The translations under genes were made by a program, and so were the position numbers. This document shows positions 17,139 through 23,045 of a stretch of 64,000 nt of DNA, piece by piece. Numbering within the stretch: position 1 is the stretch's first letter; each line of letters begins with the position of its first letter. The stretch lies in NCBI RefSeq assembly GCF_028641065.1, contig NC_073402.1, positions 32,116,001 to 32,180,000 of the forward strand, read 5' to 3'. Origin of the DNA: Leucoraja erinacea. Its lineage: Eukaryota. Below the pieces are notes generated by a model. That model was given only the letters and a program-made list of their open reading frames with translations, searched no databases and was not told where the DNA came from.

Positions 17139-18034
17139 ATATCCTTTCTTCAATTCTCCTAAATGAGCGAAGCAGAGATACTAAATCTTTTTGGTTTGAT
17201 GCATTTGAATGTCTTATTATTTTAGTTTCGTAAAGTGTTATTCCTTTGGAAATTGGTGGAGATAAGATACTATGTTGGGGTGTGTGTGCAATCATGTATA
17301 CAGGCTCCATTGTTTACAGCGGGCATATTCATGCATTCTCGATTTTCCCATGTATGTGATGGTTGCTGTAATCAGTATGGGTATGTGTGAATGGAAATAT
17401 GTCATGGCCGATTTTGAAGTATCTACAGATAAATTTAAAAACAATGTCATTTTCTTTGTAACTTAACACCTATACAATCTAATTGAAGGAACATTGATTT
17501 TGCATCACAGGAGCAGATATGTACTCCATATGTTCCTTGCATATAATATGGGTTAATAATTTTTAATTAATATTGCTAGCAAATGTGTGATCCCATTTGC
17601 CCTGATTGTCTGTTCCTTGAACCTCATAAACATAGCTTAAATATGTGAATCTAAATGAATAGGCGCCGATTTTAATGTAATTCACAAGAATCATACAATT
17701 TATTTCCACATAGTGGAACTTTAGTTATTTCACACTGAAAATAGGTTTTAATTGCTAAGATTATTAAAACGGGTCTAAATCCAATTTTAAACTCTTAACC
17801 AAATTTGAAATTGAAATTTACTGATTAATCTGACACCATCAGAACTTTGGGGTGAACAGGCAGGTTTTTGCAGAACTATTGGGTATTACTGCTATTGATA
17901 TAAATTCTTTAAACTTTTTTAAAATGTTGTACAATGGTATATTCTTCCAGTGAGCTTAAAGGAAAATTGGGCGTGGAGCTCAGTGGGCTTAAAGGGAACA
18001 TGAGGCATGGGGATACAGTCATTGGTCACAAGTG

Positions 18035-18360
18035 ATGGGAGCAGAATTAGGCTATTCGGCCCATGAAGCCTACTCCGCCATTCAATCATGGCTGAACTAT
18101 CTCCTTCCTAAACCCATTCTCCTGCCTTCTCCCCAGAACCTCTGACACACGTACCAATCAAGAATCTATCTATCGCCGTCTTAAAAATTGACTTGGCTTC
18201 CAGCCTTCTATGGCAAAGAATTCTGCAGATTCACCGCCATTCTTCCATCTCCTTCCTAACGGAATGTCCTTTAATTCTGAGGCTATGACATCTATCCTAG
18301 ACTCTCCCACTAGTGGAACCATTCCATCCAAGTCTTTTACTATTCATTAAGTTTCAATGA
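18035..18360 (-). mobile_element. CR1-type LINE 3' fragment
   Basis: gagcagaattaggctattcggcccat...ccattcaatcatggctga, the same family as 38165-38798 and 52215-52578. Confidence 0.7.
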
Positions 18361-21300
18361 GTCGAGTCAGAGTCATTGAGTCAAGCTTCAATACAGTGAG
18401 ACAGATGCCGAATGATTAGGATATCTCTTGAATGTTTCTAAAAGAGCATTTCAATTGACAGTTTCGATGGTTTACCTGAAATATTGATAAAAGGCCAGTT
18501 CATAATTGAATGTAGTCTATTTAATTGTGGAAATCGAGAGAAATAAATGCTCAGTACCAGGAATCAGAACTGATTACTTGGTGGCATTTATCAGTTTACT
18601 GGAAAAGGTGTGGGATTGCATGTTTCGAATGTGGAATGGCATGTTGTGCATTTCATTTGAGACCTGAATTGAATTGAACACATTCAATCCAGTTTTTAGT
18701 TGCTCAGCTGCAACGTACTACAACTCATTGTAGCAACTAATGCTGGTGCATCCTTCAGCAGAGTTTTTCCAAGTACTGTCTGCCTTTGTTCTTTAAAATG
18801 TTACCATTGTGGATTTGCCGAGTGGCAGCAAAGTAACGTTGCCATTATTGTGATGTGCTGACATAGCTAGATGTTGAGGATAGATGTTTAAACGAACATG
18901 GAAAGGACCATACAAGCAGATTGTTTTGGTTGTGATAATGTTGAGCTTTATATAGAAATTGGATCCACCCAGACAGTAGGTTCTTTTAAGGCTTTGAGAG
19001 TTGAGTTGCTCTGCTTTTTGAGAAATATTCAGCGTTTGACCTGGAGCAAGTATGGCATTTGTCACAGATCCCGTTGAGCTCTAGTTGATATTGAGCCCAA
19101 TGGGGGTTTATTGTGGAATTTCTCTTGAGTGCCATGCCAATGGTTATACTTGCCGTTAACAGCTCAGATCAGTTTTTGCATTGAGGATTAAACAGAGAAA
19201 TTCTTTCAGTGCTTCTAGATCATGCAAATCAGCCTAAAGAAAAGGTGCAAGGAGCAGAAATAGCCCCTTTAGATACATGAAGTCCATAGCTTAGTGATTT
19301 AAGTGCTTGCATTAGTGTATGCCTCTACCACTCACTACCCCAGACAGGACATGCCAGATTCCAGCCCATGTTTGTGTTAAATAATTTCCTGTAAATGTCC
19401 TACCACTTATTTATAATCATCTTGGTGCAAAGTATGTCACTAATGTGAAGAATTTCTTTTTTTTTTTTACTGCTACAACTGTTCAAATATAGTTTTAAAA
19501 GAAACTCAATTTGGCCTTGGTGGAATCTATAATGAGCATTAGTGAGTATTGTTAATTGTATTGCTTTTATTTATTAGGTTTTTGGATGATGGTCTCGAGG
19601 CTGACTGGGCCTTAATTTTACAGTTTAGAGTGCCATGGTTTTTGTCACCAGGCCATAGTTGAGGGTGTTAACAAGCTTCATTTACCAATGTGGAATTGTT
19701 AATGAACATCCTAGCTATAGACACTGCAAATAATGGTATCCGCAAAGTTTGGGTTATATTATGGCCCATTCTATATTCCATTAAAGCATTATTTTTCTAT
19801 TCAGCAGGGAAACTAAAATTGTGATAATAAAATTCAAATTGACAAATCTAAAGTATTTTGCAGTACAATGGATTTGTATTATTTCCCTTGGCAGCACCAA
19901 CCATGTTGCAAGACAACAAATGGTGTGGTGTGCAGTACAGGCTAGCTGTGCGTAATCAGAGTTCGTTAGAATGTAGCTACTGCGTGAACATTTTAGTCTC
20001 GAGCTGTTTTAAAGTACCTGACACTTCAATTTTACTGCCCAGAAAACCTTGGCACATATATCATTCATCTTGTGTTACTCTGTGCTAATCATGTTGCATT
20101 CATTCTGGGTTGTATGCATGGGTAATATTAGTCCAATGTTGTATATAATGGTTATTTAGATTTAAAACTCACTTTCTAGGTTACAAAAGGCTAAAATATC
20201 TATTACTGTGCCTCTGAAATAAAGCAATTTTCTGCTAATTGTTTTGAATTCAAAGAAATTCATCCCTAGCAAGTTCTCCTTTGGATTAATGGGCACAATT
20301 TTTTATTTTGAATACATTTGCATCCTTGCACGTTTGAATGTGAACATGGGATGTGCTTAATATACCATTAATAAATTATGGGATCTAAATAGGATTACCT
20401 CTGGAGTTTCTTGTCTCCTAAAACATCAATTCGTTTAACTTTGTCATTGTTCTAGTGCATTGATATTATGTGCTGTGAACTAGGTGCAAATGCAAAGTGA
20501 AAAATGAAAATTCTTCTTCCTACAATTATACATAATTTTATTTCAGAAAATATATTTTAGCATGCACTTTCATTAACATTGAGATTGAATTAACGTTTTG
20601 AAAATTCAAAACTAAAATGGCAGATTACACTGTTTTGGGAGGTTTTTCTTTGGGGGAAGATGACCTTAAACTAATCTAATGAATTATATTTTACGAAATA
20701 TTATATTGTTATGACTGCTAAAATGTTTACGGCAGCTGACAAACTAAATTAGAATTAAATATTTTTGGCATCTTGGAACCTATATCTTTTTCACGCAGTT
20801 AAATAATTATTTTTTTTGTACACCAGTCCTGTGGACATCATAATTTTGAAAATTTGAACAAATTAGAGCTTCTTCCATTTCCTTAATTTTTTTGCTTCAA
20901 GTTTGATTTAAAGTCTGATTATATAAATCACTTTATTTGCCTAAAGTCTGCTTTAGTATTTAAAAAATTAAATGCAGACCTAATCTACAGTTGATTTCAT
21001 TTTGAATTCATGACATGTTAGGTCATCTGGCTAATAATTTTTCATTTTTAATGAAATAATATAGTAGGAAAACTAAAATCCAGTAACATTGAGTAAAAGT
21101 GTGGGGAGAAACTGATCTTGCTGGGGAAAAAAGTAAAATGTTGCATTCCCTATTACTAATTCCAATCATGGTAAGTATTCTTAGATAGCCATTAAAGTAC
21201 AGTCAGTTGAAGGTGTGTGTTTTTAATGTTCATTGCATATAACTTGGGTATTAAAATACTACATTCATAGATGTTAGTTTGCTCTAAATCCTGTGACTAG

Positions 21301-21666
21301 CAGGACTTGGTTGGAAGCTTAGAGCTGTTGATATGTTTCCACATAATGTAAACGTATTGTACTGATTTGTGTGGCTTGTGTTCTATTGTTATCATGGTGG
21401 TTGTAGGAACTGCTAGTGCTGGTTTGTATTGCACACCAGTATTACTTTTTCTAACAACTTTTTCTATTTATATGCCACTGTAAGTACTTAACCATAAGTT
21501 TGAATAATGAAAAATATGATGGGTAGATTTAAGTTGTTTGTAAAATGTACCTGCTGGTGACTTTTGTGGCTAGTTTTGGAGGTAGTCAAAAAATGATTTC
21601 AAACCCTGCATGTTTGTCTCTTTATACCCATCCCCTGACATAATTTTTTTGTTGTTGTTGCCTCAG

Positions 21667-22301
21667 AAATTTTAAAGCATTCCGCTGTAACTGGCGATCC
21701 CACAAAGAGTATGAAAGAGCCTTTAGATAGAAATCCAAGCATAAGACAAGCAGACAAGCCAAAGACCTCTTAAGGATCAGGCTTGAAGAAAAGAGAGGGA
21801 GGGTGAAAAAGATTAAAGCTTGAAGAGGGAAAAGTCAAGGCCTCGATTTGTCCGCAATTGGAAAAAGGTTGTTTTGTCAAAGTCAAGTGTCTTATTTGGG
21901 CCAGCGCCTCATGTCAAGTCCTTCTGGCAAGCACTTAAAGAGTTAAAGGTCAAGCTGACGGTGCAAGGTCAAGTTTACAGCCAAATTTAAGGTAACCGGC
22001 AAAGTCCTGATATTGTATCCTACTGTAGTGAAAACAATTAATTCGCTCTTTAAATGTTTTGATTGTGATTTTTACAAACTTAAATGATCCTTATGTAATA
22101 CAAATCTGTAAAACGTTTAATTCATAATTCATAGTCTCAGTATTGCTGCTGATAAATTCTTTTTTTTAATTTTCATTTGTTATATTTGTTTGTAATGTTT
22201 GCAACCATTTATTTTTCCAACTACATTGGCTTGACAGGAGATGATGGGTTTAAATGCTCTTGTGATGAGTCCATTTTCCATCATGTGCTTCCAAAAATAA
22301 A
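21667..22301 (+). other. Candidate unproductive alternative exon of SRSF10 with GA-rich enhancer
   Basis: U-rich tract plus cctcAG at 21665-21666; purine-rich body with AGACAAG x2, AAAGAC, GCTTGAAGA x2 and six GTCAA; possible donor AAG|GTAACC at 21992; AATAAA at 22296. Inferred by analogy with mammalian Srsf10 exon 3. Confidence 0.55.
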
Positions 22302-23045
22302 ATTCCTGTCAATTAATGCTCCCCCTTTTTAAAAAAAAAAAAAAAAAAAAAGTGTATTTTTGGATTTCTCAAGCTTGAGTAGTTTTGTTTCTGTTTAAAG
22401 CTATTTAACTGCCACTCCTTAATCAACTAGGTGCTGCAAAACTATAATTGCGAGTGCCATTGTGACTTGACCTAGTAAATGTAAAGCAGAGTTGGCATTC
22501 ATTGGTGGATGCCTGCAACCTGTCAGCACCTGTATATTGTGGGAGGCATTTGCCTTCTGGGCAGGGTTTTATCCCCTTGTGTGATCACTACCGTGGCACA
22601 TGACTGGTGTTTCCCTGGTCCAAGATGCATTTTACTGCAGTGAAGCTGTTTTGATGCTTTGACCAGCAGTGTATTATTGTTTTATATTTATAACTTACTT
22701 AATTTTGTTTGCATAATTTTGCTAAATCTAATTAATGAAGACAAACAGTGGTGATTGGATACAGCCTGACAATTAATTTGGGATGTAATATTGTAGATTA
22801 GTTTTGATTTTATCGTTTAGATGTAATTGATATAACAATTTTGATTCATTGTAAAATTAGTAAACTTGTATGTGTATTTTAAGGAATAGACCGATAATGG
22901 AACTTTAGCATCTTATGCAATTTTATTTAAGAACTAGCTTTCTAGATTTTTGGCAAAGCATTGTTGTGGCTGAAAATGTGTATTAAAGATTGTAGGATTT
23001 GTTCGCAACCTGTGAAAGTGAAAAGCCCCCTTAACAGCTTAGCAT

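What the first reader, a model, noticed from the sequence alone, without database searches (positions are those of the whole stretch)
17139..23045. SRSF10 minor intron with rare AT-AT termini
The donor is a textbook U12 ATATCCTTT and the branch site is CCCCTTAAC. The only 3' junction restoring the conserved YIQFEDV is ...CAGCTTAGCAT|GTTTGAA, so the intron ends in AT rather than the AC reported for mammalian Srsf10. That junction lies 11 nt from the branch A (23034), within the usual U12 window. The AG at 23041-23042 is only 8 nt away and would give in-frame YIHMFED, altering RNP1. This intron is reported to limit SRSF10 output in mammals, so a weaker acceptor could retune SR-protein dosage in this lineage.
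Basis: partly seen in the sequence, partly recalled or inferred. Interest (0 to 1): 0.7.

Follow-up and report, generated by a model that had tools for sequence, protein, structure and literature searches.

The report
Skate SRSF10 minor intron ends AT
In this fish (likely a skate), the rare minor-class intron of the splicing regulator SRSF10 most likely ends in AT instead of the AC of mammals, but that ending is already known in the human sister gene SRSF12 and likely in many bony fishes, so it is likely an old, tolerated variant and not a special switch.

Summary
SRSF10 intron 2 (17139-23045) has a U12 donor and branch site. Only the AT acceptor gives YIQFEDV, and that product matches RefSeq skate SRSF10 over its first 169 residues. 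T23045 stands in genomic contigs of two organisms. Transcript contigs from two studies fork exactly at 23046, not at the rival AG; the junction contig itself was not seen.

The dosage idea is not supported. The human paralog SRSF12 has AT-AT at this intron, with the same branch-to-end spacing. Human SRSF10 has the same branch site and the same AG, which is annotated as the end of a second, GT-AG minor intron whose donor is also present here. Read-through gene models imply AT in six teleost genera, AC in amniotes, and AA or AG elsewhere. AT is therefore likely old and the last base labile. AT-AT makes up about 1% of conserved animal minor introns.

The scan reached this reading before in another cartilaginous fish (e1-9873115). 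Verdict: real, a new member of a known kind, low interest.

The parts
14118..14182 (+). SRSF10 exon 1, coding part from ATG
   Evidence: Joined translation identical to RefSeq skate SRSF10 over its first 169 aa
17034..17138 (+). SRSF10 exon 2 (RRM, ends ...AYI plus CA of Q)
   Evidence: Pfam RRM_1
17139..17147 (+). U12-type 5' splice site ATATCCTTT
   Evidence: Single copy in window; predicted 7-bp duplexes with this genome's U11 and U6atac; first 14 intron bases identical to the human SRSF10 donor
17139..23045 (+). Intron 2, 5907 nt, U12-type AT-AT
21667..22014 (+). Candidate counterpart of the mammalian non-coding 'exon 3' (U2-type acceptor, GA-rich); bounds inferred by eye, use not shown
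   Evidence: Sequence; layout as in Meinke 2020
22015..22023 (+). Second minor donor GTATCCTAC (GT type), the likely partner of the AG at 23041-23042
   Evidence: the same nine bases open an annotated human SRSF10 U12 GT-AG intron that ends at the homologous AG
22987..22988 (+). Candidate upstream U2-type acceptor AG (would extend exon 3 by 57 nt); inferred
   Evidence: Contig fork at 22986 in two transcript runs with a rise in depth; fork logic
23027..23035 (+). U12 branch site CCCCTTAAC (branch A taken as 23034; not tested)
   Evidence: Best predicted U12 pairing in the last 200 nt of the intron; identical to the human SRSF10 branch site
23041..23042 (+). Conserved AG, 8 nt from the branch A; not the main acceptor
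   Evidence: No contig fork at 23043; human SRSF10 has an AG at the same place
23044..23045 (+). 3' terminal AT of the minor intron
23046..23149 (+). Next coding exon (G + FEDV...DRK; 'exon 4' in the mouse numbering)
   Evidence: Transcript contigs begin at 23046 and join 23149>23782
23782..23953 (+). Following coding exon (start of the RS region)
   Evidence: Joint and loose end
24036..24095 (+). Coding exon 5
   Evidence: Loose-end letters at 23953 match its start
25062..25285 (+). Last coding exon (end approximate); full product 242 aa
   Evidence: predicted; not covered by laid runs

Best explanation
This is the conserved minor-spliceosome intron of SRSF10; it is most likely cut at AT because the branch-site distance likely picks the acceptor and the last base is likely only loosely constrained. 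U11 and U6atac are predicted to read ATATCCTTT, and U12 to read CCCCTTAAC. The acceptor 11 nt downstream is used, restoring YIQFEDV. The AG 3 nt earlier lies too close for this donor and likely serves a second, rarely used GT-type minor donor at 22015, as annotated in human. AT at this position is likely ancestral or near-neutral: it is shared with human SRSF12 and probably with many teleosts, while amniote SRSF10 has AC. Shown: the sequence, T23045, the reading frame, the snRNA genes and the contig fork at 23046. Taken from papers: the human termini and the 11-13 nt optimum. Inferred: the donor side of the junction, the fish termini, the ancestry and the neutrality.
For: Frame test and 169 of 169 leading residues identical to RefSeq skate proteins P0116 and P0121. 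T23045 in contigs of 4 of 4 runs laid; fork at 23046 and none at 23043 in 2 of 2 transcript runs. U12, U11 and U6atac genes in G000. Optimum branch-to-acceptor distance 11-13 nt (PMC3584512, passages). Human SRSF12 is AT-AT with 11-nt spacing; human SRSF10 has the same branch site and AG and an annotated GT-AG minor intron (PMC4176328 and PMC8280824 supplement rows). Of 38 models with the branch site in frame, the residue before FEDV is T 21, M 10, K 5, I 1, R 1, calibrated on the two human acceptors. AC/AT switches between human and mouse orthologues are tabulated (PMC1557818 tables).
Against: The exon 2-exon 3 junction contig was not displayed and the donor side was not covered, so the fork shows an entry at 23046 but not its source. 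Contigs drop rare forms, so minor AG use is not excluded. Fish termini are read from protein models, not DNA, and the sample is biased toward M because one query carried the skate's M. No shark, ray or chimaera acceptor was read. A review says non-canonical termini often splice with reduced efficiency. A second fork at 22986 suggests that some transcripts bypass the minor acceptor.
Confidence: 0.8

Rival explanations
1. The AT end is a functional weakening that lowers productive SRSF10 splicing and so resets SR-protein dosage in this lineage, or more widely in fishes.
For: The intron limits Srsf10 output in mouse and human cells (PMC7244321, section read in part). Non-canonical termini often splice less well. 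A second entry point at 22986 carries part of the contig depth. No SRSF12 paralog was found in G000, so dosage may rest on one gene.
Against: AT is not lineage-specific. Human AT-AT introns of UBR3 and ERCC5 have healthy PSI 0.08 and 0.07, against 0.38 for AT-AC SRSF10 (17 rows of that sheet seen). In mouse the control is placed in competing donors and an exon enhancer, not in the last base. Rough contig depths (18.7 of 54.1; 29.6 of 78.7) give no sign of worse splicing than human, though this is a poor measure.
Confidence: 0.1
2. The minor donor is spliced mainly to the AG at 23041-23042 (AT-AG), giving YIHMFED.
For: In frame, 243 aa; some annotation models use the homologous AG (P0202, YVHTFEDV, 42 members).
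Against: No fork at 23043 in 2 of 2 transcript runs; RefSeq skate proteins read YIQFEDV; 8 nt is below the 11-13 nt optimum.
Confidence: 0.04
3. T23045 is an assembly error or a private allele, and the species has AC.
For: None found; only contigs, not raw reads, were laid.
Against: T in contigs of four runs from four studies and two organism labels.
Confidence: 0.02

Closest known systems
Human SRSF12 U12 AT-AT intron (hg38 chr6:89105531-89107153; PMC8280824 supplement; PMC4176328 supplement)
   Same: Same position in the RRM (after ...CA of Q), ATATCCTTT donor, CCTTAAC branch site, spacer beginning AGCT, 11 nt from branch A to end, terminal AT
   Different: Paralogous gene; 1623 nt against 5907 nt; next exon starts with A, not G; no AG 3 nt before the end
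Human and mouse SRSF10 U12 AT-AC intron with nested U2 intron (PMC7244321; PMC8280824 supplement)
   Same: Orthologous intron; first 14 intron bases, branch site CCCCTTAAC, AG 3 nt before the end and second minor donor GTATCCTAC are all shared
   Different: Ends in AC, with 10 nt rather than 11 from the branch A. The competing major donor and the autoregulation were not identified or tested here.
A-type (AT-AN) minor introns, such as ERCC5, IK, KCMF1, SMC3, HNRNPLL, UBR3 and TCTN1
   Same: AT-AT termini on a U12 intron; 701 cases, 0.95% of conserved animal minor introns
   Different: Different host genes; this one sits in an autoregulated splicing factor

Membership tests
U12-type (minor) intron | Extended 5' splice site RTATCCTTT | tested here: met
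   ATATCCTTT at 17139, the single copy in the window; predicted pairing with G000 U11 (-6.2 kcal/mol) and U6atac (-9.4)
U12-type (minor) intron | Branch site of CCTTAAC type able to pair with U12 snRNA | tested here: met
   23027-23035; best predicted U12 duplex (-5.3 kcal/mol, 5 bp) in the last 200 nt; same as human SRSF10
U12-type (minor) intron | Acceptor about 11-13 nt from the branch site, no polypyrimidine tract | tested here: met
   11 nt from A23034; optimum from PMC3584512; the branch A itself was not mapped
U12-type (minor) intron | Host genome encodes minor snRNAs | tested here: met
   U12, U11 and U6atac over Rfam cut-offs; U4atac not searched
U12-type (minor) intron | Excised at the stated ends in RNA | tested here: inconclusive
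   Acceptor side supported by the contig fork at 23046 and by RefSeq proteins; no junction-spanning record seen
U12-type (minor) intron | Splicing depends on minor spliceosome components | not testable with these tools
   Needs knock-down; shown for human SRSF10 after CENATAC depletion
SRSF10 orthologue (versus SRSF12) | Groups with SRSF10 and apart from SRSF12 | tested here: met
   The 8 SRSF12 rows form one branch (100/99); the skate protein lies with the 12 other rows, which are SRSF10-like (21 rows picked from 295; midpoint root). NCBI names agree.
Srsf10 autoregulatory twintron (Meinke 2020) | Competing downstream major donor after exon 2 | tested here: inconclusive
   Best consensus match within 460 nt is 7 of 9 (exon end 17351); use not shown
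Srsf10 autoregulatory twintron (Meinke 2020) | Non-coding exon with GA-rich enhancer and a minor donor at its end | tested here: inconclusive
   Candidate at 21667-22014 read by eye and donor GTATCCTAC at 22015; not covered by laid runs
Srsf10 autoregulatory twintron (Meinke 2020) | SRSF10 level controls exon inclusion | not testable with these tools
   Needs cells

The most novel reading that the evidence does not exclude
AT-AT is the ancestral state of the SRSF10/SRSF12 minor 'sensor' intron in jawed vertebrates. Its last base has since flipped repeatedly (AC in amniote SRSF10 and some teleosts, AA in Alosa, AG in a loach and in frog SRSF12), and this natural allelic series, together with an upstream major acceptor at 22989, sets how tightly SR-protein dosage follows minor-spliceosome activity in each lineage.
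Probability: 0.1. Interest if true: 0.55.

Novelty: new member of a known kind. Interest (0 to 1): 0.2.

Why it matters
As it stands this is one more AT-AT minor intron, at a position where the human paralog already has that ending, and public skate gene models already carry the correct join. The useful point is comparative: the mammalian AC is likely not the ancestral state, and the last base of a well-studied regulatory intron appears to vary across vertebrates. That gives ready-made natural variants for asking whether the terminal base affects minor-intron efficiency. It would matter more only if the swap were shown to change SRSF10 output.

Tried and rejected
No RNA holder was listed as on record; X1 and X10 are guessed RNA, though each shows the spliced joint 23149>23782. 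Only 4 of 24 listed runs were laid, and only on 22400-23960, so the donor side and the candidate non-coding exon were not covered.

Sliding both junctions to find canonical ends failed for all shifts of up to 6 nt. An AT-AA minor join to 22987 would also fork at 22986, but the best U12 pairing in the last 200 nt lies at 23023-23038, not upstream of it, so I set it aside.

An SRSF12 paralog, which would have allowed a direct in-genome comparison, was not found by three protein searches of G000 or in 160 kb around a second PNRC locus. This is not proof of loss.

No shark, ray or chimaera model that reads through the acceptor came up in three homolog searches. The 77 non-spliced models without the branch site in frame were left out of the strict count, because their junction may fall inside the codon.

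Literature dead ends: Lin 2010 supplement, no hit; Olthof 2024 main text, no hit; zebrafish Zrsr2 supplement unreadable; Dietrich 2005, the mutational test of terminal bases, not held. The archease-like exon got no Pfam match.
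Full report
1. The observation. The donor at 17139 reads ATATCCTTT, the only copy on either strand of the window. The branch site CCCCTTAAC lies at 23027-23035, and the intron end reads AGCAT|GTTTGAA. Of 26 acceptors tried from 23036 to 23061, only 23046 gives YIQFEDV, and no slid join within 6 nt gives the same mRNA. With corrected outer exons, the AT join gives a 242-aa protein whose first 169 residues are identical to two RefSeq skate SRSF10 proteins, P0116 and P0121. 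The AG join diverges after residue 56. The other four coding introns are GT-AG. The label 'skate' rests on this identity.

2. Is the T real, and which acceptor is used? Four of 24 listed runs were laid on 22400-23960, all as contigs. A genomic contig of X2 (organism A; may be this DNA's source) spans the stretch with no difference. One of X6 (organism B) spans it with 2 other letters and a 10-nt gap, none at 23045. Runs X1 and X10 come from different studies; their kind is guessed as RNA, but each shows the spliced joint 23149>23782. Both hold an unspliced contig 22986-23075 with no difference and a spliced contig that begins exactly at 23046 (depth 18.7 to 54.1, and 29.6 to 78.7). The 30-nt overlap is what a fork in a 31-mer graph leaves (recalled property of such assemblies). 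A join from exon 2 to the AT forks at 23046, and a join to the AG would fork at 23043; no break is seen at 23043. This is indirect: the junction contig was not displayed, its donor is not seen, and contigs drop rare forms.

3. Machinery and mechanism. G000 holds U12, U11 and U6atac genes (U4atac not searched). Predicted duplexes are 7 bp for donor-U11 and donor-U6atac and 5 bp for branch site-U12, the best site in the last 200 nt. A review gives 11-13 nt as the optimal branch-to-acceptor distance and says non-canonical ends work, often less efficiently (PMC3584512, passages). The AT lies 11 nt and the AG 8 nt from A23034. The last base of minor introns is known to vary, giving the AT-AN class (PMC8280824, passages).

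4. Is AT special to this lineage? No. Human SRSF12 has this intron as AT-AT, with 203 junction reads in 8 tissues (PMC4176328, supplement rows; file 1 not searched). The supplement of PMC8280824 (rows; file 13 not searched) gives both human acceptors. SRSF10 has the same branch site as the window, the same AG 3 nt before the end, and AC at 10 nt. SRSF12 has a spacer beginning AGCT as in the window, and AT at 11 nt. The human AG is annotated as the end of a second U12 intron (GT-AG) from a donor GTATCCTAC, and the window has these nine bases at 22015. So the 'rival' AG is conserved and likely has another partner. The paralog call is sound: SRSF12 rows form their own branch (100/99) and the skate protein lies with SRSF10 (21 rows picked from 295; midpoint root).

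5. Indirect survey. Gene models that read through the acceptor spell the last two intron bases in the residue before FEDV. The two human acceptors calibrate this: they translate as PLTFST|F and LVI|F, as in mammalian SRSF10 and SRSF12 models. Of 295 proteins held, 217 had the exon start; 102 were correctly spliced, 77 were set aside, and 38 had the branch site in frame. Among the 38, T (AC) numbered 21, including nine amniote genera; M (AT) 10, including Colossoma, Hoplias, Brachyhypopomus, Danionella, Anabarilius and Stegastes; K (AA) 5, including Alosa; I (AT) 1; R (AG or CG) 1, Paramisgurnus. These are not frequencies, as one query carried the skate's M. Among the set-aside rows, SRSF12 models gave I 6, M 6 and R 3. 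With skate SRSF10, teleost srsf10 and mammalian SRSF12 sharing AT, AT is the simpler ancestral state, but no shark, chimaera or outgroup acceptor was read.

6. How rare is AT-AT? Six human and six mouse cases, with several AC/AT switches between orthologues (PMC1557818, tables 2-3). It is the second commonest non-canonical end in animals: 701 introns, 0.95% of conserved minor introns (PMC10639083, passages and supplement rows). Human UBR3 and ERCC5 AT-AT introns show healthy PSI 0.08 and 0.07, against 0.38 for AT-AC SRSF10 (17 rows seen), so AT-AT is not by itself a poorly spliced class.

7. The dosage idea. In mouse, output is set by competing minor and major donors and an enhancer in a non-coding exon (PMC7244321, passages and the first third of the results; PMC8329584, passages). 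Part of that layout is recognisable here by eye, but the competing major donor was not pinned down. For the idea: both transcript runs show a second fork at 22986 with depth rising from about 6 to 19 and from 7 to 30, which fits a major-type join to the AG at 22987-22988 from a donor ending in AAG, such as 21991 or 21212 (one part of the intron was not scanned), and no SRSF12 was found in G000. Nothing ties either point to the terminal T.

8. Novelty. Six searches of the paper library (listings only) showed no title or abstract on the fish SRSF10 terminus. Intron databases and unseen supplements may list it, and RefSeq skate models already carry the join. I had the SRSF12 result before seeing it; it pointed me to the PMC8280824 supplement, which I checked. 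It is not independent evidence. Verdict: real, a new member of a known kind, interest 0.2.

Noticed in passing
window 22986-22989: Second contig fork in both transcript runs, with a three- to four-fold rise in depth. It fits a major-type acceptor AG at 22987-22988, 57 nt upstream of the minor acceptor; candidate donors end at 21991 or 21212. Some mammal and bird models also enter upstream of the minor acceptor.
   Followed up: partly
window 22015-22023: Second minor-type donor GTATCCTAC, conserved with human SRSF10, where it opens an annotated U12 GT-AG intron that shares the branch site.
   Followed up: partly
G000 whole; C5:78070001-78230000: No SRSF12 paralog found by three protein searches or around a second PNRC locus; possible loss in this lineage. 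The expected PNRC1-SRSF12 adjacency is recalled, not from a call.
   Followed up: partly
window 31721-32158 (-): Single-exon PNRC-family gene tail-to-tail with SRSF10 (Pfam PNRC); likely PNRC2 (name recalled).
   Followed up: partly
window 33155-37490 (+): Retroelement with a reverse transcriptase ORF and a tyrosine-recombinase-like ORF; DIRS-like by that pairing (label recalled).
   Followed up: partly
window 61093-61179 (-): Short coding exon that looks like the start of archease (ZBTB8OS; name recalled); no Pfam match on 29 aa.
   Followed up: partly
window about 25350-25407: Run of about 57 G just after the SRSF10 stop codon; may be an assembly artefact.
   Followed up: no
protein hits P0001-P0120: Most top hits to an exon 2 read-through query are public gene models that run through the minor donor (QYP...), so this intron is often mis-annotated in vertebrate proteomes; the sample is biased by the query.
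   Followed up: partly
G000, 45 places: U6atac family search gave 45 matches over the cut-off, mostly weak, likely U6 or U6atac pseudogenes.
   Followed up: no
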